A DNA stretch of 64,000 nucleotides from Candidatus Uhrbacteria bacterium CG10_big_fil_rev_8_21_14_0_10_50_16 (GTDB lineage Bacteria > Patescibacteriota > Patescibacteriia > UBA9934 > UBA11717). Made by a program: the position numbers and the translations under genes. The notes under the pieces are model-generated. The model made no database searches and had not been told where the DNA came from. It worked only from the letters and a program-made list of their open reading frames with translations. The stretch covers positions 14,781-78,780 of the forward strand of contig PCYM01000002.1 in the NCBI GenBank assembly GCA_002774875.1. Reading direction: 5' to 3'. Shown in pieces: positions 6,621 to 64,000 of this stretch (the stretch's first letter is position 1; the number at the start of each line of letters is the position of its first letter).

Positions 6621-7874
6621 CTACCCGGCGGACATAATTTTATAAAACGTATCGCCTCTGCGAACGCGTGCGGTTACCTGCATCGTCATGTCCTCACCCT
6701 TATTGACCGTGGTGACATGCGTATCGTTGCACCAAATCTCTTCCGGCGTTTGACGCACAAACCCGGTCGTCTTTCCCACAAACACACAAGGCTCGCCCGC
6801 CGTAAATCCTTCTGCCTGCACGCGAATCTCGGCCACACCTAACTTGGGAAAGTAATTTAACACCGTTCCCACAAAGACCTTTTTTGTGGTGGCCTTACTA
6901 TCTGATCCTTGGCTCCAATATTTGTAGGCCAATCCACGATAAAATCCATCGCTTAATCCACGATTAAACACCGTTCCCAACCGCGTGTTCCACTGGCTGA
7001 TTTTTTCCTTTGTGCACGACCCATCGCCGATGGCCGCAAGTGCCTCCTTGTAACAGCGAATCACCACATCTACATATTCTGGCGGCTTTCCACGCCCTTC
7101 CACTTTCAAAGACACGGCACCAGACGCTACAATCTCATCAAGCATGCCAATGGTACACAAATCCTCCGTGCTCATAACAAACTCGTTGTCTACGTCTAAC
7201 TGTTTTCCTGTTGCTTTGTCCGTGACCGTGTACGCGCGACGGCAGGGCTGGCTACACGACCCACAATTAGCCGACGTGTTGTACATGTACAAGCTCATTC
7301 CGCATCTTCCACTCACCGCCACACACATGGCCCCGTGCACAAAAATCTCCACCTCCACCAACCGACCCTTTGGTCCGCGAATGTCCTGCGTTTTAATCAC
7401 GTCAACGATTGATTTGATCTGTTTAAGCGTGAGTTCGCGCGCAAGCACGACTCGGTCCGCCCACGTAGCAAAAAATTTTACGGCGTCGATGTTAGAAATG
7501 GAATGTTGTGTAGAAATATGAACCTCGACTCCTTGCGACTTTGCATAAGCGATTGTGGAGAGGTCAAACGCAATCACCGCGTCCACCTGTGCCAGCTTTA
7601 CCGCGTCTATCACCTGCTTCATCTCCTCCAAGTTTTGATCATACACAAGCGTGTTGAGCGCCAAATAGCATTTGACGTTGTATTGATGGCAAAGCGTGCT
7701 GATCTCCTGAATGTCTGCTAGGCCAAGGTGCGCAGAAGAGTTTGCGCGCATATTAAACCCATCCACACCAAAGTAGACCGCATCTGCCCCGGCGTTGATA
7801 GCGGCATGGAGCGCCTCGTAGGACCCTGCGGGTGCCAGGAGTTCGATGTGAGAAATGTCGGTAGGCGTTGCCAT
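6621..7874 (-). CDS. Peptidase U32 family protein (collagenase-like / RlhA-type)
   Basis: ELLAPAGSYEALHAAINAGADAVYFG... and C-x-C-rich central region typical of U32; start set to Met of MATPTDISHIELLAPAG. Confidence 0.75.
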   Translation of the reverse strand: MATPTDISHIELLAPAGSYEALHAAINAGADAVYFGVDGFNMRANSSAHLGLADIQEISTLCHQYNVKCYLALNTLVYDQNLEEMKQVIDAVKLAQVDAVIAFDLSTIAYAKSQGVEVHISTQHSISNIDAVKFFATWADRVVLARELTLKQIKSIVDVIKTQDIRGPKGRLVEVEIFVHGAMCVAVSGRCGMSLYMYNTSANCGSCSQPCRRAYTVTDKATGKQLDVDNEFVMSTEDLCTIGMLDEIVASGAVSLKVEGRGKPPEYVDVVIRCYKEALAAIGDGSCTKEKISQWNTRLGTVFNRGLSDGFYRGLAYKYWSQGSDSKATTKKVFVGTVLNYFPKLGVAEIRVQAEGFTAGEPCVFVGKTTGFVRQTPEEIWCNDTHVTTVNKGEDMTMQVTARVRRGDTFYKIMSAG

Positions 7875-8072: not shown

Positions 8073-8255
8073 TGCCTACAATATAGCCTAAACTGTTACG
8101 AAAGTCACAGCATGGCATAAAAATCTACCAAAGCACTGACCCCGTTGTCAGCGAGCTTTGGTAGGTCGTATGTCGAAAGGCATGCGTTGGGAGTAATCCC
8201 ACGAGCTGGCAGCGGGTTTTGTGCTGTCCGCTCGAATAAATCCTACCAAAGCGCT

Positions 8256-24184: not shown

Positions 24185-25666
<1,482 letters not shown>

Positions 25667-28989: not shown

Positions 28990-29300
28990 ATAGGTAGTCC
29001 TTTTACAACAACAAAATCAATGACTCGAGAAGTAGTACTCTTATTACTCCCTGCAAAGCGAATCCGGGATGGTGGAAGCCGGATCATAGAATAAGAAGAA
29101 ATTGGACTCGATGAGATGACGCGTGCTTTTGTGCGTGTCCGGCATCCCCCGTAACCTTGGGATAATGTGTATCTACGGAGCACATGAAAGAGCCTTCTTT
29201 TTTTAGAAGGAATTGAGGTGGTACCGCGGTGGTGGAGAACCCCCGTCCTCAGACAACGTCTTGTTGTCTTTGGGCGGGGGTTTTTTGCCCCACGCAAGGA
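28990..29300 (+). promoter_or_regulatory. T-box riboswitch leader with intrinsic terminator
   Basis: Canonical T-box sequence AATTGAGGTGGTACCGCGGTG at ~29205-29225 (17/19 to AAUUAGGGUGGUACCGCGG); ~300-nt leader; terminator ccccc gtcc...gggcggggg + T6 at ~29242-29290 just before the SD of the downstream operon. Confidence 0.65.
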
Positions 29301-41155: not shown

Positions 41156-42304
41156 GCTTTGTTCACTGATAGAGCACAACGCCTCAGTGATCCATGCATC
41201 TTACAAACAAACAGTGAAACAGGGCTTGTAACAACTACGTTGCAAGAACAAAGGACGATCGATATGGATCGTTCTCCTGGAATGTGCGTATGGCTGTAGG
41301 AAATTTCATGTAACGGCACTACAACGTACGGCAATCTGGATTAAAAAGGCTGGATCCATGGTCTACAACACCGTTTGAGACACATGTGTCCCCGCCACGC
41401 GGCCCCGCCGCGGATCTCTCGCTAGCACCACATAGACGCCATGCTATAGCTGGTAGCGGGAGATCCGCGGCAGAGGACGCAACCTGTCCAATCCGCACAA
41501 GAACTCTGTTGCCGGTGGGACGGCAAAACAGGGTGGGTGCTTGGCACACCCAGACCATCTGGTCAAAGATAACTCCTGGTAACAGGAGGAAACTCATGGC
41601 GGTAACACCATGGGGATGCGAAAGCATTCATAGCGCCACGCCTATCATGACGTATCCACGTTGGGTCGGGAGACCCCTCCAGGATCGGTACTGGAGTTGA
41701 TAGGTGCTTGCGGGTTGGAACCCTGCAAGAGTGAGTGCGGACAGTGGATTCTCCAATCCACGTTTGCACAGCAATGGTTTGGGCTACGCCCTCAACTGAT
41801 CGCAACCATTTTGTTACCGGCATCGCGCCCGAGTGGCGCGACCAATCAACCACCGGGTTGGTTTGCTGGGGCAATGGCGATCAGGTTGTATGCAAGGAAG
41901 GGCCTAACCGGTGAATCGTTCGTGTCAGTCATCTGCACGGCGATGATCCGGATAAAAAGGCGGATGGTTTGGGCGCCCCCCATTCCGTCCGCTCAACCAG
42001 GAGTCCCAGGCCGGCCAGCCAGGATTCTGAAGTTGAGAACTTGCATACTCCTAAGGCTGACACCCATCAGCCGACCGAATTCCATCGGGTTTTTCCGCTC
42101 AGACGGGCGGAAGACACACGGAAGGGTCAAAGACTGGTTGGCGGTCGCAACCGTCTCGCACAGCCTGAGAAGGCAACCAGCCGCGGGAGTAAGCACTTGC
42201 GTTACTTATTCCCACCTTATCTTCGCGCCCGAGCTTGCAATTCTGCTTGCTCGGACGCTCCACAAACTGCTTGAGTAACTCGAGCTGTTCGTGGAGGAGG
42301 AGCG

Positions 42305-42460
42305 ATGGCCATCACCCCCAGCTACGGAGTGGTGCGTCACGGCGCGGTCTGGTTTACCACCAGCCCGCAGCAGCTCAAGCGTGAGGCCCGTGAAAAGGCC
42401 GATCGCGAGCTGCAGGCGAAGCGACCTTGTGTCGTAATCCGCCGCCGCGCGCACCGGTAG
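42305..42460 (+). CDS. Small high-GC hypothetical protein (51 aa)
   Basis: GGAGGAGG SD immediately upstream of ATG; GC3-rich; below the track length cut-off. Confidence 0.35.
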   Translation: MAITPSYGVVRHGAVWFTTSPQQLKREAREKADRELQAKRPCVVIRRRAHR

Positions 42461-42681
42461 TCCTCATACGCTCGTGGGTCACACGAGCGTAAAAGGGTGC
42501 CGCAAACACCCTGCCCTAGCCAGGCAAAACCCCCGGGCTGCAGGTCCCATCTTGATTGAAAATTCCTGCACAACGTGGACCTGGGCACTGCTCGGGTCTT
42601 CCACAAAGGCGCGATCCTGTATGGCATTTTTGTGGAGGATACAACTCACTTACTGTTCTCGGAGGAGAACGAGGAGGTTCC

Positions 42682-42972
42682 ATGCGTCGATACACATTGT
42701 TCAGTAGCTGGCGTCGATCTGAGCTCGAGATCCCCTCCTCCGGGAGAAGGATCAAGAAGCTGGATAGGACGTTCGAGGTCGGCACCCCGCGGTACCTGAA
42801 GTGGCTCCGGCGCATGTTCCCCGATCAGGTTTACCTGGTCGTGGCGCAGGGAACCATGCCTCAAATGCTCGACCGCGTTCGCGCGCGGTTTGGACAGGAG
42901 GAGGTTCCCGGCGTGGTGTCTGCCACCGTTCAGCTTCAGCGGGACATCCGAGAAAACCCAAGTCTCTACTGA
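42682..42972 (+). CDS. Small high-GC hypothetical protein (96 aa, basic)
   Basis: GAGGAGG SD + ATG 42682 inside track ORF 42556..42972; preceded by a repeat-leader copy. Confidence 0.45.
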   Translation: MRRYTLFSSWRRSELEIPSSGRRIKKLDRTFEVGTPRYLKWLRRMFPDQVYLVVAQGTMPQMLDRVRARFGQEEVPGVVSATVQLQRDIRENPSLY

Positions 42973-42990
42973 AAGGAGGTGCTTCCGTGG

Positions 42991-43055
42991 CCTGAGGAGA
43001 ATCGCTTCTTGGGCCCTGCATAGAGTCTTTGCAAAACGAAGGTTCTATGGAGGAA
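42991..43055 (+). repeat. Repeated ~65-70-nt leader module (copy R1) with conserved 11-bp stem-loop ending in the SD
   Basis: GCCTGAGGAGAATCGCTTCTTGGGCCCTGCATAGAGTCTTTGCAAAACGAAGGTTCTATGGAGG is ~80% identical to the copy at 43711-43790; compensatory base changes keep the CAUAGAGUCYU/ARGRUUNUAUG stem. Confidence 0.55.
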
Positions 43056-43293
43056 AGGAAGTGTCAAATACCCCAGGTGGTATTGACGGCACTTCTGGCG
43101 CCTCACGACCATGTGCTCTCACCAGCACAAATTGGTCACAAAAGAGACGAACAGCAATGCGTCGCGGCTGCCAGTAGGAGGTATACGTACGAGGCCTGAG
43201 AAGATTCACTTCTCGGGCACTCTACAGAATTCTAGGCAGAAAAGGATTCTGAGAGTTAATCAATGTACGCAACAAGAGATTGGGAGGTGTGCG

Positions 43294-43569
43294 ATGAACA
43301 AGCTCAATGTGGTTGAGATAGGTCTTCGTAATGGCAAGGGTCTGAGCTTCACCTGCGGCAAGCTCTATGTCCGCATTACGGTAGACGGCCTCACGCTGCG
43401 CGTTGAGACCAACCTGCCGGTGCGGGCCAAGGAGCTGGCCGAGTCCGAGACGACCCCCGTTCGCCGGTCCGTGTTTGACCGCGCCGATGAGCTGCGCCGA
43501 GGAGGACGGCACAGCGACGTGGACGTGGCGGCAACAGGAGGGCGGCGGGTGATCCGACGCAGAACGTAA
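43294..43569 (+). CDS. Small high-GC hypothetical protein (92 aa)
   Basis: GGGAGG SD + ATG 43294 inside track ORF 43111..43569; preceded by a partial leader-module copy at 43194-43238. Confidence 0.45.
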   Translation: MNKLNVVEIGLRNGKGLSFTCGKLYVRITVDGLTLRVETNLPVRAKELAESETTPVRRSVFDRADELRRGGRHSDVDVAATGGRRVIRRRT

Positions 43570-43710
43570 ACCCCAGCCCGCGATCGGAACACGCGGCAAA
43601 GGCTGTTCCACCCCTCGCCCTCGCGAGCAGACCCCTTGCGTTTGAGCCACGCAATCGGGTCCCGTCCAGAACGGGGTAAGCCATCGCTCCGGGCGGTCAC
43701 GCGCCCCCTT

Positions 43711-43790
43711 GCCTGAGGTCAACTGATTCTCGGGCACTGCATAGAGTCCTTGCTGCACGAGGATTGTATGGAGTCTACAACTTTTGGAGG
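43711..43790 (+). repeat. Repeated leader module (copy R2) abutting the ATG of the 189-aa gene
   Basis: GCCTGAGGTCAACTGATTCTCGGGCACTGCATAGAGTCCTTGCTGCACGAGGATTGTATGGAGTCTACAACTTTTGGAGGTCACC then ATG. Confidence 0.55.
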
Positions 43791-43795
43791 TCACC

Positions 43796-44362
43796 ATGCG
43801 CCTGTTCGGACTTTCTGACTGTTACGATGCGATGGATCTGTACGTCTGCATCAACGGCAAGCACGTGCTCCTGTCCCGGTCGGAGGGGTGGGTGTCTGCC
43901 CGTGTGAAGCCGTGTGACAAGAGCTGTGTTCCCACGGAGATTGATCTGGAGGTGTGGCTGCAGAAGGCACCGCGGAAGGTCCGCAAGGATCCTCGGCTGC
44001 TCGCGTTCGTGGAGCAAGGAGTGCCCGCGTACACGGTGCACCGTTCCTTCGCCAAGCGCTCCGGCGGCAGCGAGACGGTCTGGATCGGCAACCTGGCGAT
44101 CACGTGGAGCTTTTGCGACGCGTCGCGGTTGAGCCAGCGGGACCGGTGGCGAGACCGCTTTGAGATCTGCCCCATCGGGGAGAATGATCTGCTGTGGTGG
44201 ATCCGCGACGTCCTCCCGTCCTCAAGACGGCTCGAAGACGTTGCCGAGGAGATCCGTCGCAATGACGATCTGCTCCTGAGCGAGCTCCGGCAGCGCGGCA
44301 CTCCGGACGCAAACACCCTGGACGCGGATGCCTTCCGGCAGTTTCTCTTGAACCTGCTGTAA
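43796..44362 (+). CDS. High-GC hypothetical protein (189 aa)
   Basis: Start at MRLFGLSD with GGAGG SD supplied by the leader module; terminator gccaaaatccc...gggatttggc+T7 at ~44400-44460. Confidence 0.5.
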   Translation: MRLFGLSDCYDAMDLYVCINGKHVLLSRSEGWVSARVKPCDKSCVPTEIDLEVWLQKAPRKVRKDPRLLAFVEQGVPAYTVHRSFAKRSGGSETVWIGNLAITWSFCDASRLSQRDRWRDRFEICPIGENDLLWWIRDVLPSSRRLEDVAEEIRRNDDLLLSELRQRGTPDANTLDADAFRQFLLNLL

Positions 44363-44592
44363 GAAGACGATCGTGCTCCCCAGCTCCCCGGTTCTCGGGT
44401 TGAGCCAAAATCCCTACGTCAATCCCATCTGTTCTTCTGGTGGGATTTGGCTTTTTTTGCTACATTTCTATTTAATTTTCATCGCCCAACAAACCTAGGG
44501 CGGCGGCATTTATTTATAAACAATACGACCTGAGACTTGATTATCTTATTTTTCTTTTAGGCTAAAATTAGCCATTTTTCCATGGTCACCTC

Positions 44593-44621
44593 TTGACAAA
44601 AGGTGTTTTTTATGGTATAAG
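44593..44621 (+). promoter_or_regulatory. Sigma70-like promoter TTGACA-N17-TATAAG in AT-rich spacer driving the next high-GC ORF
   Basis: Read directly. Confidence 0.5.
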
Positions 44622-44761
44622 ATTGTTACGCCAAAGGTGGAATAGGTTCACCTAACGCGCAGACGATCCGGAACGCTGATTCATACAGCATTCTGAAAGA
44701 CGATAACGGATCGGTCTCGTGCAAGCGAGATACCTATGAACGGGGCTTACCACCCCACGGA

Positions 44762-45460
44762 GTGATGATGGAAAAGGAAACCAACGTCATGGTGCGCCTC
44801 CCGGCGCGAGAATGGGAAATCCTCATCAAGGAGGTCCTCGCCGCAGAGGCAGATCTCCCCTCGTGGGAGTGGTGCAGAACAAGCGGAGCCCCCCGCGAGG
44901 AGGAGGGGCGGCGGCGCGATGCCGCCAGGACCGCTCTGAGGGTGGCCATGGGTCGCTCACCGGCCAACGAGAGGATGGAGGACCGTCTGGCCAACAAGGC
45001 CGGGTGCGTCCTCCTCGTGGACGGCCGGTTTGAGATCGGGGGCTCCGTTGGGGAGCGCAAGCTCCTGATCAACGGCCGAATCCGGGCCACCCTCCGCCTG
45101 GGGGGCCGTCTGGACGGCCGCGTGGATGTCGTCACCCGGGAGGCGGCCGAGGCCGCCTACCAGGAGCGACGACAGGCCTCCCGCCACGCCGAGGCCGCCT
45201 ACAAGGCGGCCCGGCAGGAGCTCATCCACGAGCTCCTGCAGGCGGACCTGGCCGAGCCCGCCGACTTCGGTCGGTGGACATACGCCTACGGGCAGTTCGG
45301 TGGGTATTTCTACCGAACGGGGGTGAGCGGCCCCCGCGTCGCCGCCAACTCCGCCTTCGTGGCGGCGTTCGGCCGCGACTGGAGGAAGACCGCCAACGAT
45401 CGGCGTTGCGAGAAGATCGAGCTCGAGCTCGATCGTCGGCTCTACGGCGCCCGCTACTAG
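44762..45460 (+). CDS. High-GC hypothetical protein (232 aa, Arg/Ala/Glu-rich)
   Basis: GGAG SD then ATGATG; GC3-saturated; followed by a terminator-like hairpin + T-run at ~45517-45575. Confidence 0.5.
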   Translation: MMMEKETNVMVRLPAREWEILIKEVLAAEADLPSWEWCRTSGAPREEEGRRRDAARTALRVAMGRSPANERMEDRLANKAGCVLLVDGRFEIGGSVGERKLLINGRIRATLRLGGRLDGRVDVVTREAAEAAYQERRQASRHAEAAYKAARQELIHELLQADLAEPADFGRWTYAYGQFGGYFYRTGVSGPRVAANSAFVAAFGRDWRKTANDRRCEKIELELDRRLYGARY

Positions 45461-45950
45461 CCCCCCAAAAAAATCCTGAGCAAGCAGGAACCCTTCGGAG
45501 CACATGTCTTGCTACATGTCTCCACCTACGCCCCGAACCACCCCCGTGCAAAATCACGGTCTGGAGGTCCGGGGTTTTGCGTTTTAAAATAGCTGTCTCT
45601 CTTAAACACCCGCATTTTTTTAACATGTTTTCCTGCGTGAGGAGATGCGACGGGTGAAGAAGATGAGATACATCTGACCGCCCAACCAAGAACCGACCCC
45701 CATCGATACGTCGATGAAGGGCGACGTCACTCGGTGGGCGGTTCTTGTTTTTGTTCGTCTCGCAGTAAACATCATTGATACGCCAGGCGAATATTTGAGA
45801 GGATAGTGATATAGGTTGAGTATTTCTACCAGGTGATCACTAATGACTTATGCCGTAGAATTATCCTCTACATCTCGATAAGCACGCATTGCCCTTTTTT
45901 CAGTACTTTGCTAAGTTACATACATGAGTAAGTAGATTTTATTTCCCCAA

Positions 45951-46757
45951 GTGAGCATAATCCCCTATCTTATGAGTGAGCTCAACACAATCAAAACGGC
46001 GCTACAACACCTGCATGCAAGCCCGAACGCCATTTCGTTCTTTCTAACGAGCTACAAGCTGAGTCGTTCTTCCGTTGGACTGATTGCCAAGACCGCCAAG
46101 ATGGATAGGTCTTCGGCATACATCGCCTACGAGCAACTCAAAGAGCTAGGTCTCATGGAGGAGGAGACGGTTGGCAGACGAAAGGTGGTTTGGACACGCG
46201 AACCAAAGGCCGTCATTGCTCGTCTACGCACCGAGATCCGCCGCATGCGAAGGCAGGTAGAGTCTATCGAAGAAGCAATGCCGGAACTCCTCGCACAGTA
46301 TGGCAGTCGTAATGACCGCCCCGTTCTGCAAGTATTTACTGGAAACGACGGTCTCCATCAGATAAAGAACGATATCTTGTCGGGCTCGGGCTTTGAGCTT
46401 CTCCTCATGTCCAACTTCCGTGAGGAGGCTGAGGTTTTTTCACGAGAGGAGCATGACAGCTTTATTCAACAGCGACTCTCGCAAAACATCACACTGCGTC
46501 TCATTGCGACAGACTCTCTCGAGGCACGCAAGATCCAAAGCTCCGATGCAAAAAATCATCGTGAAACTCTTGTAATAGAAGGTGATGCCCCATTTAATAA
46601 TGAAACCTACATCTACGGCAATAAGGTCGCGATGCTCTCATTCAATGAGCAAACTGGCGTTATTGGCTTTATTATTCAGTCAAAGGAGTTTGCAGATGCG
46701 CAGCGCTGGATGTTTGAGCAGATTTGGAAACAATTAAATACAAGTAACAAGACTTGA
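45951..46757 (+). CDS. TrmB-family transcriptional regulator, paralogue of 39858..40619
   Basis: C-terminal IYGNKVAMLSF...GFIIQSKEFADAQRWMFEQIW parallels IYGDRVVFTSF...AIIIQSEMFSQTARVMFEAAW of the first copy; start may be Met 45972. Confidence 0.55.
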   Translation: MSIIPYLMSELNTIKTALQHLHASPNAISFFLTSYKLSRSSVGLIAKTAKMDRSSAYIAYEQLKELGLMEEETVGRRKVVWTREPKAVIARLRTEIRRMRRQVESIEEAMPELLAQYGSRNDRPVLQVFTGNDGLHQIKNDILSGSGFELLLMSNFREEAEVFSREEHDSFIQQRLSQNITLRLIATDSLEARKIQSSDAKNHRETLVIEGDAPFNNETYIYGNKVAMLSFNEQTGVIGFIIQSKEFADAQRWMFEQIWKQLNTSNKT

Positions 46758-46794
46758 TAGCAGCTCACAACCGTTATCAAGGGACTATTAATCT

Positions 46795-47547
46795 ATGCAG
46801 ATCATTGTAAATAACCTTGATACGGAATATACGGATAACGGAGCAGGCGCAACAATCCTCTTGCTACACGGTTGGGGTACAAATGCGCGTTCGTTCAGCT
46901 CACTCACAAATATCCTAAGCTCCAACAATAGGTGCATATCTCTTTCTTTGCCCGGTTTCGGAAAGAGCGAGAACCCTCCTAAGGCATGGGCAGTTGAGGA
47001 CTACGCTGCGTTTGTTCGTCAGTTTCTAATAAAGCTCGACATAGACAATCCAGATGTCCTTATTGGACATTCATTTGGTGGTAGGATCGCCGTTAAGGCA
47101 GTTGCAACGCTCAAAATCTCTCCCAAGAAACTAGTGTTAATTGCTTCTGCTGGATTGGCAGAGGAGACCAAGCACGCATACTTGGCAACGGGAATCATAA
47201 AGATCGGAAAGATCGTCACTTCGATCCCGCCTTTTTCGATTGCACGAAATACGTTGAAGCGCGTAATGCGACGCGCACGTGCAAGCAAGGACTATACGGA
47301 AGCCGGTGCGCTCAAAGACACGTTCGTTAATGTAGTCAATGAACATCTTGGAACAGATGCAAAGAAAGTACGTACTCCAACGTTGCTTATTTGGGGTAAG
47401 GAGGACGCCGAAACACCACTTACAGAGGCAAACGCCTTCAAGCAGAGTATCCCCAACTCTGAGCTTTGCATTATTCCAAACGCCGGTCATTTTGTCTTTC
47501 AGGAACAGTCCCGTACCGTCGCAAGAGCCATAAAACATTTCCTATGA
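46795..47547 (+). CDS. Alpha/beta-fold hydrolase
   Basis: HGWG oxyanion region and nucleophile elbow GHSFGG. Confidence 0.7.
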   Translation: MQIIVNNLDTEYTDNGAGATILLLHGWGTNARSFSSLTNILSSNNRCISLSLPGFGKSENPPKAWAVEDYAAFVRQFLIKLDIDNPDVLIGHSFGGRIAVKAVATLKISPKKLVLIASAGLAEETKHAYLATGIIKIGKIVTSIPPFSIARNTLKRVMRRARASKDYTEAGALKDTFVNVVNEHLGTDAKKVRTPTLLIWGKEDAETPLTEANAFKQSIPNSELCIIPNAGHFVFQEQSRTVARAIKHFL

Positions 47548-48974
47548 CTACCTCTTTTCTATCTCGCTATCGTCCTCGATTCTTACGCTCACTCGTATAC
47601 ATGCTCCAAGCCACGGAATACAACATTGGTGATTACATCAACTGGCTCCACCGAACGCGTGACTTTAGTAAGGTCGAGAAGCGCAAGCAACTTAAGCAAT
47701 CGCACAAAGCGCTTGCTCTCCTGTACCTTGGCAGACTTCTTTGGCTCGCGCTCATACTGTTAGGCACTTCTCTTTCTGTTTATGGGTCAGCTATTGCTAC
47801 AAAACTCTTAGGCATCCTCGTACTCATGCTGTCTCCGTTTCTATTGGCGTACATAATCACGATCCCCCTATTTATTCTCAAACTATTTGTACAAAAACCC
47901 ATCGAAGCACTCATAATCTGGCGTGCGACGCAAACAATGGCACGTCACAAAGGGGTAAAAATTGCTATTGCTGGTAGTTACGGAAAAACATCCATGAGAG
48001 AAATGCTCCACACCGTTTTGTCTGAGGGTAAGCACGTTGCAGCCCCTCCACATAGTTACAACACGCCGCTAGGCGTTAGCGCTTTTGTTAAAACACTCAA
48101 AGGAGATGAGAAAGTGTTGATCTTTGAGCTGGGAGAATACTACCCGGGTGATGTAGCAAAGCTTTGCAAGATCGTGCAACCCGACATCGGGGTCATTACT
48201 GGAATCAATGAGGCACACCTGCAGAAATTTAAAACATTAAAGCAAACCGCCAAAACGATCTTTGAGTTAGCCGAGGCGTTACCATCGCAACCAGTTTATA
48301 TAAATGGAGAGAGTCAAATTGCGTGCACATATGCAAAAGAATCTCACATCCTTTATGACCAAAATGGAATTGGGAGCTGGCACGTACATAATCCAGCAAC
48401 AGACCTATCGGGCACATCTTTCACGCTCACAAAGGATGACCAACAGATCAAGCTCAAATCAAAACTTCTCGGCATGCATCAGATTGGTCCATTAGTCGCG
48501 GCAGTCGACATCGCTCACAAGCTCGGCCTAACAAACGAACACATTCAGTCCGGCGTTGCCAATACAAAACCATTTGAGCATCGCCTCGAACCAAGAGTTG
48601 ATGAAAGCGGTATTACAACGCTTGACGACAGCTATAACGGTAACCCCGACGGAGTACGTGTCGTCATCGACTTTCTTAAAACCCTCAAGGGTCGTCGATT
48701 CTATGTAACGCCCGGGCTCGTGGAGATGGGCTCGCGCTCAAAAGAGGTTCACATGAAGATTGGCCATCAGCTCGCTAGCGCGAAGATAGAGCGCGTCGTA
48801 CTAATAAGCAACTCTGTCACCCCCTATATTGAGCAAGGGTTGCGAGAAGCCAACTACAAGGGAGAAATTATTTGGTTCGATGATGCTCTCAAAGCCTACG
48901 CAACCTTGCCTAGCATGACCGTGAAGGGCGACATTATTCTTCTTCAAAACGATTGGCCCGATCAATATGCCTAA
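47544..48974 (+). CDS. murF: UDP-N-acetylmuramoyl-tripeptide--D-alanyl-D-alanine ligase MurF with N-terminal membrane extension
   Basis: Mur ligase P-loop IAGSYGKTS and C-terminal Mur ligase domain; ATGA overlap with the upstream gene. Confidence 0.75.
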   Translation: MTTSFLSRYRPRFLRSLVYMLQATEYNIGDYINWLHRTRDFSKVEKRKQLKQSHKALALLYLGRLLWLALILLGTSLSVYGSAIATKLLGILVLMLSPFLLAYIITIPLFILKLFVQKPIEALIIWRATQTMARHKGVKIAIAGSYGKTSMREMLHTVLSEGKHVAAPPHSYNTPLGVSAFVKTLKGDEKVLIFELGEYYPGDVAKLCKIVQPDIGVITGINEAHLQKFKTLKQTAKTIFELAEALPSQPVYINGESQIACTYAKESHILYDQNGIGSWHVHNPATDLSGTSFTLTKDDQQIKLKSKLLGMHQIGPLVAAVDIAHKLGLTNEHIQSGVANTKPFEHRLEPRVDESGITTLDDSYNGNPDGVRVVIDFLKTLKGRRFYVTPGLVEMGSRSKEVHMKIGHQLASAKIERVVLISNSVTPYIEQGLREANYKGEIIWFDDALKAYATLPSMTVKGDIILLQNDWPDQYA

Positions 48975-50112
48975 CAAGAAAACAATCGCAGTAATCTTTG
49001 GTGGGAAAAGTGCCGAGCATGACGTCTCTATTATCACGGCCCACACGCCCATCATCCAGTCACTTGTTGCTATGGGCAAGTACAACATCCTACCTATCTA
49101 TGTTACAAAGGACGGTGATTGGTATTCCGATGAAGCAATGAACGATATGGCTTACTTTAGGAAAGGTGGTATTGAAGGCAAGCTCAAGAAATTAAAGCCT
49201 CTTCAACTGTCACTCGGGAATGCTTTGTCTATTATTTTTCCAGGCATCATCCCGAAGACTGTAAAAGTCGACATTGTATTTCCAGCTATGCACGGAACGT
49301 TCGGCGAAGATGGGAGTCTCATGGGGGTTCTGCGCATGGCAAACGTTCCGTTCGTCGGTTGCGATCTTGCCGCATCTGCCGTTGCCATGGACAAGGTATT
49401 CACCAAGCAAATTGCAGAAGCAGAAGGCATCCCAGTTGTGCCGTATGTTTGGTTTACCAAACAAGAATGGCTATCCGATATGGACGTTTGCATCAAGAAG
49501 ACCGCCGGACTAACGTGGCCACTGTTTGTAAAGCCGGTACACCTTGGCTCATCTATTGCTATTACAAAAGTAAAGAATCAAACAGAACTCAAACGCGCTA
49601 TTGAAGTCGCATTTCATTATGACGACAAAGTGCTGGTTGAGGAGAGTGTAGACAATCTCATTGAGGTCACGCTTCCAATCATGGGGAATGACCAGCCCCA
49701 GGTTGCCAGCATTGAGCGACCTTTGAACAAGACAGAGTTTTTTAACTTTGAAGACAAATATCTGTCTGGCGGGAAAAAAGGATCGGGAGGTAACAGCGCT
49801 TATAGTGAAGTCCCTGCAAAAATATCATCAGATCTTGCACACAAAGTAGAAGAGCTGGGAAAACAAGTCTATCGCGTTCTAGGATGCACGGGCACCGCAC
49901 GCGTTGACTTCCTTATTAACTCAAAGCGAGAGCACATATTCGTTAACGAGGTGAACACGCTCCCCGGGAGTCTCTACCATCACAACTGGAAGATGTCGGG
50001 TGTGTCTAATATTGATCTTGTACGCAGACTTATCGAGCTCGGAGAGGAAAAATTCCTAAGAGAATCAACAATCGTACGTGTGTTTAAATCCAACGTGTTG
50101 CACAAAGACTAA
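48967..50112 (+). CDS. ddl: D-alanine--D-alanine ligase
   Basis: ATP-grasp Ddl pattern (IAVIFGGKSAEHDVSI..., FVNEVNTLPG). Confidence 0.8.
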   Translation: MPNKKTIAVIFGGKSAEHDVSIITAHTPIIQSLVAMGKYNILPIYVTKDGDWYSDEAMNDMAYFRKGGIEGKLKKLKPLQLSLGNALSIIFPGIIPKTVKVDIVFPAMHGTFGEDGSLMGVLRMANVPFVGCDLAASAVAMDKVFTKQIAEAEGIPVVPYVWFTKQEWLSDMDVCIKKTAGLTWPLFVKPVHLGSSIAITKVKNQTELKRAIEVAFHYDDKVLVEESVDNLIEVTLPIMGNDQPQVASIERPLNKTEFFNFEDKYLSGGKKGSGGNSAYSEVPAKISSDLAHKVEELGKQVYRVLGCTGTARVDFLINSKREHIFVNEVNTLPGSLYHHNWKMSGVSNIDLVRRLIELGEEKFLRESTIVRVFKSNVLHKD

Positions 50113-50168
50113 TGGCATATGCTCTCCCACCCTGCAACGAAAAACACCCCTTTCGGGGTGCCTTTCGT

Positions 50169-50244
50169 TGGAGCGGGTAGAGGGAATCGAACCCTCATCT
50201 CAAGCTTGGAAGGCTCGCATAATAAGCCACTATACTATACCCGC
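50169..50244 (-). tRNA. tRNA-Gly (anticodon UCC)
   Basis: Reverse complement GCGGGTATAGTATAGTGGCTTATTATGCGAGCCTTCCAAGCTTGAGATGAGGGTTCGATTCCCTCTACCCGCTCCA; anticodon loop CTTCCAA; T-arm GAGGG-TTCGATT-CCCTC. Confidence 0.75.
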
Positions 50245-50475
50245 ATATTGTTTAATGTACCTTCTTCCCTCTCCCGACTTCAGCCACTTTTCTCGAATGC
50301 GACCTACTATAAAGTCAGGATGAGTTTCCGTTAGAATAACACGGAACGGCCGTTTGTGTTTTGTTGATCGATTTCTTCCGGAATTGTGCTCACTTAATCG
50401 TCGATCAAGATCTTTACACATTCCTATGTACAGAGTCCCATCAAATTCACTCACCAGCGCATAGACAGTTATCAT
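50230..50475 (-). CDS. GIY-YIG nuclease-domain protein, YhbQ/UPF0213-like (81 aa)
   Basis: ITVYALVSEFDGTLYIGMCKDLDRRLSEHNSG matches the GIY-(x10)-YIG...R...H.xG core; its last 15 nt overlap the 5' end of tRNA-Gly. Confidence 0.65.
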   Translation of the reverse strand: MITVYALVSEFDGTLYIGMCKDLDRRLSEHNSGRNRSTKHKRPFRVILTETHPDFIVGRIREKWLKSGEGRRYIKQYAGIV

Positions 50476-50508
50476 AGCTCGGATTTTGTTTTCGTAGATG
50501 TAAATCCC

Positions 50509-50587
50509 CGAACCCTCATCTCAAGCTTGGAAGCCTGCCTGCCGGCAGGCAGGGCTCGCATAATAAGCCACTATACTATACCCGCAT
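50509..50587 (-). repeat. Partial duplicate of tRNA-Gly (positions ~1-57) with a 20-nt palindromic insertion CCTGCCTGCCGGCAGGCAGG at the anticodon loop; T-arm/acceptor 3' half missing
   Basis: 59 nt identical to the intact tRNA gene at 50180-50244 apart from the insertion at 50534-50553. Confidence 0.7.
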
Positions 50588-50712
50588 GTTCTTTTTCGTA
50601 GGCAACTATAACAAATAGGTCATTTTTTTGCAAGAGTTGATCCAGTTGGCCTTACTATTCATTGTTCTTATGAGGTAACTCATCGTAGAGAGCCATTTTG
50701 CCAATCCCTCAT

Positions 50713-51156
50713 AAAAAAGTGAAACGGCAGCCTCGGATGGCCGCCGTTCACGTACGTTGACATAGATTTGGGCTTTTTACACCCTACCCGCTTGAGTAAC
50801 CAGGACCTCGCACGCCCTTTCCGATGGTCACCTAGCGTCTGCAATACCCTAAGCGCGTTTCATACAAAAGTCGCGCGCTCCACAGGTCTCTCCGTACGTG
50901 GCTGACCAACCAACGTACCCCGTGTGGACTAACTACCGCAGGTGCTTTCTCACCTCAAATGATCCTCTTTGTCCAAGGTCGGTAGTTCTTTCACCTTCAG
51001 CGCGGCGCGAGCCGTGCGCGGAAGGTGTGGTCGAAGATGTCGAGTGGGGGGGTGTAGGCGTTTGCGGAGAGAGCTTCCGCTGCCTACATACATAGATTCA
51101 TACTGTCCTCCTTCCGTTCGACCTAACCTTTATACCCTAAAATACCATTTTGTCAA
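50713..51156 (-). ncRNA. Candidate ~410-nt non-coding transcript bounded by a TTGACA-N16-TATAAA promoter (51129-51156, minus) and a 14-bp hairpin + U6 terminator (50713-50751, minus)
   Basis: No ORF with SD in either strand; strong promoter and terminator on the same strand; identity (tmRNA/RNase P/SRP/other) not established. Confidence 0.4.
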
Positions 51157-51213
51157 TAGTTCGCGTATAAAACAATAAAAAAACGCCTAAAACGGCGCCA
51201 TTTTTAACAATCA

Positions 51214-61797: not shown

Positions 61798-62185
61798 GGC
61801 CGTTCATTAAAACCTGTATAACATTAGATTGAAGGAGGAAGAGGAGCGTTGGAAACCGGCTAGATTCGTTTAGCATGGCGACAGTGTTCTTGAGTCATCT
61901 ATCGGTGAAACTGGGTCTCACTCACTCTCTCCGAACAGATGCCTCGCGAATGTAGATTACCTTGGTAAACCTACATTCATCCCCTTCAATCTGCTGTGAT
62001 ACAGCAGGCGTTTCCCGCTTCACCCCAGAAACCTGTCGTTTTTGGCGATTTTCTGTGTTGAGGTGGGAGAACGAGCGTTCTTTCCATATTTAGCCTGCAA
62101 CCCCGTGGTGGGGAAGTTGGCTTTTTTGATACGTCGCCGCGTGTACGGCACGTTTTGCGGCAATGCCGTGGAAGAGGAGAGGGAG

Positions 62186-64000
62186 ATGAGCAAGACCATG
62201 CCGATCCGCCTGCGCCTGGCGGACAACGAGGAGGTCAGCGAGGAGATGCCCACCGGGCTCTCGTTCGGGGACATCCGGACCCTCGGGTTGCTGGAGGTCG
62301 CCGAGATCGGAACGCGCCTCGCGCTCCCCTCGGGGATCGAGGTAGTCCGGACAGAGTCCGGCCTGGGGTTCATCACCAAGACCGCGCCCGTGAGCACGGC
62401 CGCCCCGGCTCCCAAGGCCGAGGTGGTCCAGACCGCGCGCCCGGCGGCCAAGGAGCCGAGGGTGACCGCCCAGGTGGCGGACATCTTCGGCGGATCCGTC
62501 GCCGTCCCCTCGGGGCGGCTGGCGGTGGACGCCTCCGTCCCCGTCCCGGCACCCAAGGCCGAGGTGGTCCAGACCGCGACCGCGCCCCCGGCGGCCAAGA
62601 TCGAGATCAAGACGGGCTCCGCCCAGGTGGCGGACATCGTCGAGGACGAGGCCCGCTTGGAACGGGAGAAGAAGGCCGCCGCACACGCGGCCAACCTCGC
62701 GGCCCGGGCCGCGATCATCCCCGGACTGGTCGTCGCCCTCGTGGCGCTGGCCAAGGAGTTCCTCAAGGAGGGCGGCCACATGGCCGGCATCTTCCTGGAG
62801 GAGGCCTACGTCAAGTCCGGCCCCTTTGCCACCCGCGTGGTGGCCGAGGGGATCGAGACCATCGAGAACTCGGTCGTCATGGACGGCCGCGCCATCCTGA
62901 ACGCCCTCCGGGCGCTCAACTCCAACCACCCCCTCCGGGGGATGGTGGACGCGATGGTCCTGCACGGCCCCCATGCCGTGCACTACGATCGGATCTTGAT
63001 CAACCGGAACCCCAAGGGGAAGGTCTGGATCCTCCCCTTGTGGGCGCCAGTGGCCTCGGCCGTCACCGACCGGCTCAGGAACGAGCTGGTGGGCGTCGCC
63101 CGCTACACGAAGCTCAAGAATGAGCTTCGCCGCCGCCTCTCGGGCGGCGCCGTGGTCAAGGGCGGGCGGAAGATCGCCCGCCACCCCAACGGGGGCGTGG
63201 ACTGGGACAGGCTCCACGACAAGTTCGAGGGAAAGGAATCCCTCGAGGGCCGCAAGGTGGCTTGGGGCCACATTGCCCTCATCGGCGACTGGGCCTTCTG
63301 CCTGGACGCCACCGACTACGACAAGACGACGGTGGTCGCCGTCGCCGCGGAGCTCACGGACGAGGGCCGCAAGGAAGAACAGGCCAAGGTGCTCCAGGAC
63401 ATCAACTGGGCCAACCGGTCCGTGAACGGGGTCAAGTTGATCCCCTTCAACACCCGGCAGACCCCCGAGGGGGCCTACCGGGTGGACCGGATCCTGAAGC
63501 AGGACGGCACCTGCCCGATCAGCGGGCAGGAGATCCCCCAGCAGAAGGGGGGCGCCTTCCACTTCCTGGTCTACGCCCCCCGTGGTGGGAGTGATCCCGC
63601 CCAACTGGTGGAGGAAATGGGCTACGTCCCCCTCCGCCCCTGGGTGGGCTACGCCCTCCTGGAGGACCTCTCCATCCTCCCCACCGACTGGGAAGTGTGG
63701 CAGAGGTGGGAGATCGTGACGCGGTTCTCCGCCACGGTCTCGTTCGTGGCGGACAAGAGCATCAAGCTCGAGCCCGCCTCACCTCGCAAGAGCAAGGGGA
63801 GCGTCTCCCTGAGCTCCCGCAAGCTCAAGGAGGAGCGCTCCGACGCCGATGCCAGGAAGGCGCTCGGCGGGGGCAAGAAGAAGAAGGGCGGGGGGTCCAA
63901 GAAGACCACCCGCCGGCTCCGAGCACGGACTCCAATGTCGGTCACCGACCGCCTGATCGAGTCCTGGGAGCACAAGTCGCCCGAGGAGTTCGGGATCATG
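62186..64000 (+). CDS. Large high-GC hypothetical protein (at least 605 aa; 3' end beyond window) with tandem ~45-aa PAPKAEVVQTA...AQVADI repeats and Lys/Gly-rich segment
   Basis: Frame-2 ORF translated by hand with no stop from ATG 62186 (GGAGAGGGAG SD) to 64000; absent from the track (no stop in window); track ORFs 62155..63123(+), 62090..63604(-) are its shadows. Confidence 0.6.
   Translation, partial: MSKTMPIRLRLADNEEVSEEMPTGLSFGDIRTLGLLEVAEIGTRLALPSGIEVVRTESGLGFITKTAPVSTAAPAPKAEVVQTARPAAKEPRVTAQVADIFGGSVAVPSGRLAVDASVPVPAPKAEVVQTATAPPAAKIEIKTGSAQVADIVEDEARLEREKKAAAHAANLAARAAIIPGLVVALVALAKEFLKEGGHMAGIFLEEAYVKSGPFATRVVAEGIETIENSVVMDGRAILNALRALNSNHPLRGMVDAMVLHGPHAVHYDRILINRNPKGKVWILPLWAPVASAVTDRLRNELVGVARYTKLKNELRRRLSGGAVVKGGRKIARHPNGGVDWDRLHDKFEGKESLEGRKVAWGHIALIGDWAFCLDATDYDKTTVVAVAAELTDEGRKEEQAKVLQDINWANRSVNGVKLIPFNTRQTPEGAYRVDRILKQDGTCPISGQEIPQQKGGAFHFLVYAPRGGSDPAQLVEEMGYVPLRPWVGYALLEDLSILPTDWEVWQRWEIVTRFSATVSFVADKSIKLEPASPRKSKGSVSLSSRKLKEERSDADARKALGGGKKKKGGGSKKTTRRLRARTPMSVTDRLIESWEHKSPEEFGIM

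What the first reader, a model, noticed from the sequence alone, without database searches (positions are those of the whole stretch)
50713..51156. ~410-nt promoter-to-terminator non-coding unit on the minus strand between the tRNA-Gly element and ruvC
On the minus strand, TTGACA-N16-TATAAA (51129-51156) is followed by GC-mixed sequence without any SD-led ORF. This ends in a 14-bp hairpin gtgaa(a)cggcagcc-tcggat-ggccgccgttcac plus U6 (50713-50751).

Internal long hairpins occur, for example gtaggc...gcctac at ~51063-51096. Its size fits tmRNA, RNase P RNA or a long SRP RNA, but I could not match their conserved blocks by eye.
Basis: seen in the sequence. Interest (0 to 1): 0.5.

Follow-up and report, generated by a model that had tools for sequence, protein, structure and literature searches.

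The report
Orphan non-coding unit beside tRNA-Gly
A real promoter-to-terminator stretch of about 410 bases with no gene inside sits between ruvC and tRNA-Gly in a groundwater Uhrbacteria-like bacterium, but it is a young, lineage-specific patchwork built around a duplicated tRNA-Gly-type promoter. It is not a tmRNA, RNase P RNA, SRP RNA or any other known RNA.

Summary
The sequence features are real. On the minus strand, TTGACA-16-TATAAA (51156-51129) is followed about 408 nt later by a strong intrinsic terminator (stem 50751-50719, U6 50718-50713). No credible protein lies between them.

The housekeeping-RNA reading fails:
- Rfam gives no match at the gathering score or at E<=10, and ARAGORN finds no tmRNA.
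- The closest relative (Uhrbacteria UBA11717-like, RuvC 84%) has only the first ~105 nt fused directly to the terminator. The central 256 nt (about 51022-50767) is therefore species-specific.
- Relatives with RuvC 64-75% lack the unit; where the downstream DNA is held and a tRNA-Gly is present it follows ruvC closely.

Other findings:
- The promoter is one of three paralogous copies of a promoter module. The others are the tRNA-Gly promoter and a promoter at 44593 (+).
- The unit lies inside a recombination mosaic next to a GIY-YIG homing-endonuclease/tRNA-Gly element.
- Its shared part diverges about as fast as nearby neutral sites. Only two hairpins keep their pairing.

Best reading: an orphan, probably transcribed, non-coding unit created by promoter duplication and insertions. 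At most it is a young lineage-specific sRNA or leader. Interest is low.

The parts
51182..51199 (-). Terminator-like hairpin of ruvC (GGCGCCGTTTTAGGCGTT + T-run), immediately upstream of the unit
   Evidence: Conserved in L005.
51112..51190 (-). Promoter module (terminator tail, -35, -10 and the first ~10 nt of the transcript). It is paralogous to window 44568-44643 (+) and similar to tRNA-Gly promoters.
   Evidence: Local alignments against dinucleotide shuffles: versus p44593 z = 7-10, versus the L009 tRNA-Gly promoter z = 6-8, versus the window tRNA-Gly promoter z about 3. Generic promoters give z about 2-3.
51129..51156 (-). Sigma-70-type promoter TTGACA (51156-51151), 16-nt spacer, TATAAA (51134-51129). 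The inferred start is near 51122.
   Evidence: 5 sites against 0.41 expected. In L005 the -10 reads TGTTAA.
51023..51125 (-). 5' module shared with the sister species. Arms 51130-51117 and 51035-51022 pair 12 of 14 in the window but only 9 of 14 in L005.
   Evidence: nhmmer and BLAST matches q1-138. 11 substitutions in 102 aligned sites plus 3 gap columns. Inverted repeat I2.
51084..51111 (-). Shine-Dalgarno GGAGGA (51111-51106) plus a 5-codon mini-ORF, AUG 51101 to UAG 51084 (MNLCM; MNRYT in L005)
   Evidence: Start, stop and length are kept, but all three internal differences change the amino acid.
51053..51088 (-). Conserved two-tier hairpin UGUAGGC-AGCGGA...UCCGC-GCCUACA
   Evidence: z = -5.0 in the window and -3.65 in L005. 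The single stem substitution turns G-C into G-U.
50767..51022 (-). Species-specific 256-nt segment (boundaries +/-3 nt because of TC/TCT microhomology), absent from L005, L006 and L012
   Evidence: Fold z = -1.2. No Rfam, Pfam, phage or plasmid match and no match to any fetched locus. GC 56%.
50713..50766 (-). Terminator module: conserved left flank GUCAACGUACG, stem 50751-50719, U6 50718-50713
   Evidence: 92.9% identical to L005 copy 1. All 3 stem substitutions keep pairing through G-U. L005 has a second copy after ORF110.
50693..50705 (-). ATTGGCAAAATGG, a direct repeat (12 of 13) of ATTGACAAAATGG at 51157-51145, so that the two copies bracket the unit
   Evidence: family D2. Chance expectation is about 0.1 (my estimate), so it is only suggestive.

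Best explanation
The unit is an orphan, lineage-specific, non-coding transcription unit. It arose by duplication of a tRNA-Gly-type promoter module and by insertions and recombination at the ruvC/tRNA-Gly junction.

Inferred mechanism:
- Sigma-70 RNA polymerase starts near 51122 from TTGACA-16-TATAAA.
- It transcribes a ~100-nt 5' module containing a strong Shine-Dalgarno, a 5-codon mini-ORF and one stable hairpin.
- It then transcribes a 256-nt species-specific segment of unknown origin.
- It stops at a strong intrinsic terminator near 50715, giving an RNA of about 408 nt.
- The terminator also shields the tRNA-Gly / GIY-YIG operon just downstream from read-through.

Shown: the sequence signals, the restricted distribution, the 256-nt indel, the promoter paralogy, the mosaic setting and the absence of any family match.

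Inferred: that it is transcribed, and that it has no conserved function. At most it is a young sRNA.
For: - The signals are real.
- No known RNA family matches.
- No coding signal appears in any frame. The one phmmer hit of the 47-aa ORF is a repeat-protein artefact.
- Only two species-level lineages carry the unit. The sister lineage has the 5' module fused directly to the terminator.
- The relatives lack the unit. L097 runs ruvC, promoter, tRNA-Gly. L092 runs ruvC, tRNA fragment plus GIY-YIG, tRNA-Gly. L007, L009, L010 and L094 give no nhmmer match.
- The promoter module is paralogous to 44568-44643 (+) and similar to tRNA-Gly promoters.
- The unit sits in a mosaic. Identity at 4-fold sites is 38-47% in yebC and its upstream neighbours, 73% in ruvC and 91% in GIY-YIG, and the 256-nt indel lies where identity rises from about 87% to 93-96%.
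- The promoter plus 5' module differ at 16 of 133 sites against 21 of 207 at neutral proxies, Fisher p = 0.60. There is no sign of purifying selection on the sequence.
- In L005 the -10 is degraded to TGTTAA and the closing stem decays.
- In L005 the same promoter and leader precede an ORFan that has no homologue among 5.8 billion proteins.
Against: - The two hairpins are kept in both species, and all 4 stem substitutions preserve pairing through G-U.
- The -35 hexamer is perfect in both species.
- The Shine-Dalgarno and the start, stop and length of the mini-ORF are conserved.
- GC content (55%) is well above the neighbouring spacer (37%).
- If the local neutral rate is the 22% seen at 4-fold sites of the ruvC 3' part, the 5' module at 11% would be somewhat constrained.
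- With only two lineages, neither selection nor covariation can be tested properly.
- No transcription data were available.
Confidence: 0.55

Rival explanations
1. It is a functional, lineage-specific regulatory RNA. One version is a trans-acting sRNA. The other is a cis-acting leader in which translation of the 5-codon ORF modulates termination, controlling ORF110 in the sister species and read-through into the tRNA-Gly/GIY-YIG operon here.
For: - It has its own promoter and terminator.
- The Shine-Dalgarno, the mini-ORF frame and two hairpins are conserved with pairing-preserving changes.
- L005 has the layout promoter, leader, terminator, Shine-Dalgarno-sequestering hairpin, ORF110, terminator.
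Against: - No alternative antiterminator pairing with the terminator 5' arm was found by inspection.
- The peptide sequence is not conserved.
- ORF110 is an ORFan and is absent from the window.
- The 256-nt indel falls in the middle of the unit.
- The L005 -10 is degraded.
- Divergence matches the neutral proxies.
- There are no paralogues or homologues anywhere searched.
Confidence: 0.25
2. It is the decayed remnant of a small protein-coding cassette. The promoter, Shine-Dalgarno, start codon and terminator survive, while the reading frame was destroyed or replaced.
For: - A strong Shine-Dalgarno lies 4 nt before an AUG and about 20 nt after the inferred start, as at a normal gene start.
- The paralogous promoter module at 44593 drives a 232-aa ORF.
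- L005 has an ORF in the equivalent cassette.
- GC content is close to that of coding DNA.
Against: - The stop after codon 5 is shared by both species.
- No frame has a Pfam hit and the 47-aa ORF has no real homologue.
- There is no similarity to ORF110 at the DNA or protein level.
Confidence: 0.12
3. The whole ~440-bp unit is a small non-autonomous mobile element inserted into the -35 region of the ancestral tRNA-Gly promoter. On this reading the 13-bp direct repeats are a target-site duplication, and the unit's promoter is a hybrid of the target -35 and an element-borne -10.
For: - ATTGACAAAATGG (51157-51145) and ATTGGCAAAATGG (50705-50693) bracket the unit exactly.
- The repeat resembles the -35 region of tRNA-Gly promoters in relatives.
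- The locus is an insertion hotspot.
Against: - There are no terminal inverted repeats.
- There is no second copy in the window or in any of the 105 fetched loci.
- A 12-of-13 repeat in 650 nt is expected about 0.1 times by chance (my estimate).
- The similarity to p44593 runs on both sides of the repeat, which fits duplication of a whole module better.
Confidence: 0.06
4. It is a diverged housekeeping RNA (RNase P RNA, tmRNA, SRP RNA or 6S) that Rfam models miss, as happens for some CPR RNase P RNAs.
For: - The size fits.
- CPR RNase P RNAs are often missed at default thresholds (PMC8172020).
- None of these RNAs is found elsewhere in the 64-kb window.
Against: - Nothing matches even at E<=10, and ARAGORN is negative.
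- By inspection there is no GAGGAAAGUCC / ACAGAA...GCUUA pair of P4 strands, and no tRNA-like 3' end.
- The central 256 nt is missing in the sister species, and the whole unit is missing in five other relatives whose DNA downstream of ruvC is held.
Confidence: 0.01

Closest known systems
Young or orphan bacterial sRNA genes and spurious intergenic transcription units born from promoter duplication or insertion (general knowledge, not a curated family)
   Same: It has a stand-alone sigma-70 promoter and an intrinsic terminator, with no conserved ORF. It is restricted to one or two species, evolves fast and lies in a recombination or insertion hotspot.
   Different: Transcription is not shown here. 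It is unusually long (~408 nt) because of a 256-nt species-specific segment, and it carries a strong Shine-Dalgarno with a 5-codon ORF.
Leader-peptide transcription attenuators (for example trp- or erm-type leaders)
   Same: A promoter is followed by a Shine-Dalgarno with a very short ORF, then hairpins, then an intrinsic terminator. In the sister species an ORF follows.
   Different: No antiterminator alternative was found. The peptide is not conserved, no regulated gene follows in the window, and the downstream ORF in L005 is an ORFan.
Bacterial RNase P RNA (RF00010/RF00011), tmRNA (RF00023), SRP RNA and 6S RNA
   Same: Only the overall length and the promoter/terminator-bounded, non-coding nature.
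   Different: There is no covariance-model match and no conserved core sequences. The unit is not conserved even in the sister species.
tRNA-Gly promoter/leader of related Patescibacteria (L009, L097, L092 and the window's own at 50633-50605)
   Same: The unit's -35, spacer, -10 and first transcribed bases align with them (z up to 6-8).
   Different: The unit's copy no longer precedes a tRNA. The sequence after the leader shows no similarity to tRNA-Gly (z = -1.3).

Membership tests
Bacterial RNase P RNA | Match to the RNaseP_bact_a/b covariance models, including the P4 strands (GAGGAAAGUCC ... ACAGAA..GCUUA) | tested here: not met
   No hit at the gathering score or at E<=10 on 1601 nt and 426 nt. 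By inspection the motifs are absent from the sequence read.
Bacterial RNase P RNA | Essential gene, so the full-length RNA should be conserved in close relatives | tested here: not met
   The central 256 nt is absent in L005, L006 and L012. The unit is absent in L007, L009, L010, L092, L094 and L097.
tmRNA | tRNA-like domain (acceptor and T-arm) plus a tag-peptide reading frame | tested here: not met
   ARAGORN finds no tmRNA in the window. No Rfam tmRNA hit.
SRP RNA / 6S RNA | Match to the Bacteria_small/large_SRP or 6S covariance models | tested here: not met
   Searches return nothing.
Group I intron (for the 256-nt segment) | Match to Intron_gpI; a U before the 5' splice site and a G as the last intron base | tested here: not met
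   No Rfam hit. Whichever way the microhomology is resolved, the segment ends in A or U, not G.
Riboswitch / T-box / other curated cis-regulatory leaders | Match to any Rfam cis-regulatory family | tested here: not met
   The same search does find the window's T-box at 29011-29253, so the method works on this genome.
Sigma-70 promoter | -35 and -10 hexamers with a 16-18 nt spacer | tested here: met
   TTGACA-16-TATAAA. The motif is enriched 5 against 0.41 expected. Caveats: position 6 of the -10 is A, so one search did not list it, and the L005 -10 is TGTTAA.
Intrinsic (Rho-independent) terminator | GC-rich hairpin followed directly by a U-tract | tested here: met
   13 pairs, -22.8 kcal/mol, z = -5.6, U6. 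Conserved in L005.
Leader-peptide attenuator | Mutually exclusive terminator and antiterminator pairings coupled to translation of the leader ORF, with a regulated gene downstream | tested here: inconclusive
   The mini-ORF and terminator are present. No antiterminator was found by inspection. There is no downstream ORF in the window, and ORF110 in L005 is an ORFan.
MITE / small transposable element | Terminal inverted repeats, target-site duplication and multiple copies | tested here: inconclusive
   A 13-nt flanking direct repeat (12 of 13) is present. There are no terminal inverted repeats and no other copies.
Structured RNA in general | Covarying base pairs across homologues | not testable with these tools
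   Only two distinct sequences exist in everything searched.

The most novel reading that the evidence does not exclude
The conserved ~160-nt core (5' module with Shine-Dalgarno and 5-codon ORF, the hairpin, and the terminator) is a new leader-peptide-type regulatory RNA or a new sRNA of an Uhrbacteria lineage. On this reading the 256-nt segment is a lineage-specific structured expansion.
Probability: 0.08. Interest if true: 0.4.

Novelty: new member of a known kind. Interest (0 to 1): 0.15.

Why it matters
The main value is as a negative result. A promoter/terminator-bounded, GC-enriched, ORF-free 400-nt stretch in a CPR genome looks like a missing housekeeping RNA. That matters because CPR RNase P RNAs are often missed by the standard models. 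Here comparison with a single sister genome is enough to show that it is not one.

It also gives a small, clean example of how an orphan transcription unit can arise. A tRNA-type promoter module was copied, foreign or scrambled DNA accumulated behind it, and a terminator keeps it from disturbing the tRNA operon. All of this happens next to a homing-endonuclease element that appears to drive local gene conversion.

Tried and rejected
- **Rfam:** gathering score on the whole window, then E<=10 on 1.6 kb, on 426 nt and on the L005 short unit. Nothing matched except a spurious DnaX hit on the wrong strand.
- **ARAGORN tmRNA search**: none.
- **Coding:** Pfam on ORFs and on all stop-free frames gave none. 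phmmer of the 47-aa ORF against 1.84 billion proteins gave one hit, to a repeat protein through RALRPHLPSLKEL repeats, rejected as an artefact.
- **Homologue hunting:**
  - nhmmer and BLAST against the window and the loci fetched up to then (102) found only the same species and L005/L006/L012.
  - Phage and plasmid collections: none.
  - Viral contigs with two patterns: none.
  - Metagenome contigs with a 28-base core pattern: none.
  - GIY-YIG-anchored scans of viral and metagenome contigs returned only relatives at 43-52% identity, without the unit.
  - The genome-contig scan with RuvC returned one close relative (L012, the same lineage as L005); the rest were <=50% identical.
- **The 5' module as a degenerate tRNA-Gly copy:** rejected for the part after the leader (z = -1.3).
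- **The 256-nt segment related to tRNA-Gly, GIY-YIG or ORF110:** rejected.
- **The 256-nt segment as a group I intron:** rejected (no terminal G, no Rfam hit).
- **DGR template repeat:** considered because L005 has a bAvd-like gene nearby. Rejected because no second copy of any part of the unit exists in the window.
- **Purifying-selection test:** inconclusive.

Full report
**Setting.** The window comes from a Patescibacteria (CPR) genome close to Candidatus Uhrbacteria. The nearest RuvC relatives are annotated as such, and the only close genome in GTDB is Uhrbacteria UBA11717 (L012). Identical contigs come from groundwater-type metagenomes. On the minus strand the local gene order is rpoB, rpoC, two small ORFs, yebC, ruvC (51693-51214), the unit, a tRNA-Gly fragment, a GIY-YIG ORF (50475-50230) and tRNA-Gly(UCC) (50244-50169).

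**Observation.**
- TTGACA (51156-51151), a 16-nt spacer and TATAAA (51134-51129) are read directly.
- The generic promoter scan missed the site only because it requires a T at the last -10 position.
- The motif TTGACA-N16-18-TANAA occurs 5 times in the window against 0.41 expected, and one site lies about 265 nt upstream of the 16S rRNA gene. It therefore marks real promoters in this genome.
- The terminator is the strongest in the 3-kb scan. It folds as a 13-pair stem at 50751-50719 followed by U6, at -22.8 kcal/mol with z = -5.6. It folds better on the minus strand than on the plus strand.
- The internal hairpin is real but lies at 51088-51053 (z = -5.0).
- The expected transcript runs from about 51122 to about 50715, roughly 408 nt.
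- One correction: a strong Shine-Dalgarno (GGAGGA, 51111-51106) sits 4 nt before an AUG that opens a 5-codon ORF, and a 47-codon ORF starts at 51093.

**Not a known RNA.** Rfam 15 gives nothing in the unit at the gathering score. It also gives nothing at E<=10 when only 1.6 kb or 426 nt are searched. The sole hit is a DnaX frameshift-element match on the opposite strand, produced by the A-run plus hairpin. ARAGORN finds no tmRNA. Lui et al. report that CPR RNase P RNAs are diverged and that 10 of 35 fell below default thresholds (PMC8172020). A negative gathering-score search is therefore not enough on its own, so I relied on the lenient searches and on comparative evidence.

**Not coding.** No ORF or stop-free frame of the unit hits Pfam. 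The 47-aa ORF has one phmmer hit among 1.84 billion proteins. That hit is to a repeat protein through its RALRPHLPSLKEL repeats and is an artefact. The 47-aa ORF also has no start codon in the sister species.

**Comparative anatomy.** I fetched loci around RuvC homologues and searched them with nhmmer and BLAST. Only one other lineage has the unit: L005, L006 and L012, with RuvC 84% identical. In that lineage the promoter and the first ~105 nt are joined directly to the terminator (L005 6483-6621, then 6621-6680). The central 256 nt of the window (about 51022-50767) is therefore species-specific. Its boundaries are blurred by a TC/TCT microhomology.

L005 instead has a 110-aa ORF after this terminator, followed by a second copy of the terminator. 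That ORF is an ORFan, with only itself found among 5.8 billion proteins. It has no Pfam or PHROG match and no trace in the window.

Relatives with RuvC 64-75% lack the unit.
- L097 has ruvC followed directly by a promoter and tRNA-Gly.
- L092 has ruvC followed by a tRNA fragment, GIY-YIG and tRNA-Gly.
- L007, L009 and L010 have a tRNA-Gly 4-1,075 nt downstream of ruvC, and L094 has an unrelated ORF on the opposite strand there; none gives an nhmmer match.

An essential housekeeping RNA cannot have this distribution. The short L005 version also matches no Rfam family.

**Origin of the promoter.** The ~80-nt module around the unit's promoter (51190-51112) is specifically similar to three other sequences:
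- a module at 44568-44643 (+), which precedes a 232-aa ORF (z = 7-10);
- the tRNA-Gly promoter and leader of L009 (z = 6-8);
- more weakly, the window's own tRNA-Gly promoter (z about 3).

Unrelated promoters of the window give z about 2-3. The sequence after the leader shows no similarity to tRNA-Gly, GIY-YIG or ORF110. The unit is bracketed by a 13-nt direct repeat, ATTGACAAAATGG / ATTGGCAAAATGG. This fits duplication of, or insertion into, a promoter -35 region, but by my estimate it could arise by chance about 1 time in 10.

**Mosaic context.** Window and L005 differ strongly in the backbone. Identity at 4-fold degenerate sites is 38% in yebC and 47% in the two upstream ORFs, against 73% in ruvC and 91% in GIY-YIG.

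Along the alignment the identity changes as follows:

| Region | Identity |
|---|---|
| ruvC before ~51504 | about 66% |
| ruvC after ~51504 | >90% |
| intergenic spacer, promoter and 5' module | 84-88% |
| terminator and spacer (beyond the 256-nt indel) | 93% |
| tRNA fragment, GIY-YIG and several kb past tRNA-Gly | 95-97% |

The window also carries 5.7 kb (44422-50162, including ddl and a Mur ligase) that is not at this place in L005. The unit therefore lies in a recombination and insertion hotspot. A gradient of similarity centred on a homing-endonuclease element is what repeated homing with co-conversion would produce. That last point is inference.

**Selection.**
- In the promoter plus 5' module, 16 of 133 aligned sites differ.
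- In nearby neutral proxies, 21 of 207 sites differ. The proxies are the spacer and the 4-fold sites of the ruvC 3' part and of GIY-YIG. Fisher p = 0.60.
- The -10 is TGTTAA in L005, and the window has lost the upstream TG.
- The 14-nt closing stem (12 of 14 pairs in the window) drops to 9 of 14 in L005.
- The three internal mini-ORF codons all differ non-synonymously.
- In contrast, the hairpin and the terminator keep pairing in both species. All four stem substitutions are transitions to or from G-U.

Two local RNA hairpins thus seem to be maintained, but there is no evidence that the unit as a whole is a constrained, structured RNA. The whole-unit fold gives z = -2.25 and is equally good on the antisense strand. 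The 256-nt segment alone gives z = -1.2.

**Verdict.** The unit is best explained as an orphan non-coding transcription unit assembled from a duplicated tRNA-Gly-type promoter module, a short leader-like 5' module, a species-specific 256-nt segment of unknown origin and a strong terminator that insulates the tRNA-Gly operon (confidence about 0.55). Rivals:

| Rival | Confidence |
|---|---|
| young functional sRNA or leader-peptide attenuator | about 0.25 |
| decayed small-gene cassette | about 0.12 |
| small mobile element with a 13-bp target duplication | about 0.06 |
| diverged housekeeping RNA | about 0.01 |

With only two lineages available, covariation cannot be tested. Transcript data and more genomes of this clade would decide the question.

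Noticed in passing
window 50169-50645 (-); also L005 7218-7681 and L092 ~5530-5930: A promoter (TTGCAA-17-TATAGT, 50633-50605) drives a 5' fragment of tRNA-Gly (50585-50509) that is interrupted by a 20-nt palindrome, CCTGCCTGCCGGCAGGCAGG. An 81-aa GIY-YIG ORF (50475-50230) follows, and its 3' end overlaps an intact tRNA-Gly(UCC) (50244-50169). L092 has the same layout but with different GC-rich hairpins inserted in the tRNA fragment. L097 and L009 have a plain promoter and tRNA-Gly. This looks like a free-standing homing endonuclease that inserted into the tRNA gene and carries a replacement 5' tRNA part. The recurrent hairpin insertions in the leftover fragment are unexplained.
   Followed up: partly
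window ~51504 (inside ruvC) through 41315, compared with L005: There is a sharp mosaic. Identity at 4-fold sites is 38-47% in yebC and its upstream neighbours, 73% in ruvC and 91% in GIY-YIG. DNA identity is about 96% for several kb beyond tRNA-Gly. This suggests recent exchange between two species whose backbones are saturated at synonymous sites.
   Followed up: partly
window 44422-50162: A 5.7-kb segment (two ORFs of unknown function, an alpha/beta hydrolase, a Mur ligase and ddl) lies between tRNA-Gly and DNA that directly follows tRNA-Gly in L005. This is a rearrangement involving cell-wall genes.
   Followed up: no
window 44568-44643 (+): A paralogue of the unit's promoter module (TTGACAAAAGGTGTTTTTTATGGTATAAG) lies about 170 nt from the rearrangement breakpoint at 44421. 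It is followed by a ~140-nt leader and a GC-rich 232-aa ORF (44762-45460) whose function was not examined.
   Followed up: partly
L005 5539-5892; L008 5629-5982: L005 carries a 117-aa gene of the 23S rRNA intervening-sequence protein family (weakly bAvd-like) between yebC and ruvC, and L008 carries a 117-aa ORF (no Pfam hit on record) at the same position. In the window these two genes overlap with nothing between them.
   Followed up: no
L005 6742-7074: A 110-aa ORFan whose Shine-Dalgarno is sequestered in a 7-bp hairpin (CCUCCUA-UCC-UAGGAGG). It is flanked by two copies of the unit's terminator and has no homologue in 5.8 billion proteins.
   Followed up: yes
L092 ~5905-6110: The last 16 nt of tRNA-Gly (CCCTCTACCCGCTCCA) are repeated about 190 nt downstream of the tRNA. 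This looks like the scar of a small insertion at the tRNA 3' end.
   Followed up: no
window 8085-8202 (+), 29011-29253 (+), 24185-25665 (+): Rfam finds a LOOT RNA (78 bits), a T-box leader (97 bits, just above its cut-off) and a 16S rRNA gene with no 23S gene in the window, that is, unlinked rRNA genes as reported for many CPR (PMC8172020).
   Followed up: no
window 62001-64000, 5001-6000 and 42001-46000: GC islands of 0.67, 0.65 and about 0.58, against a window mean of 0.51. The 42-46 kb island is the region shared at about 96% identity with L005.
   Followed up: no
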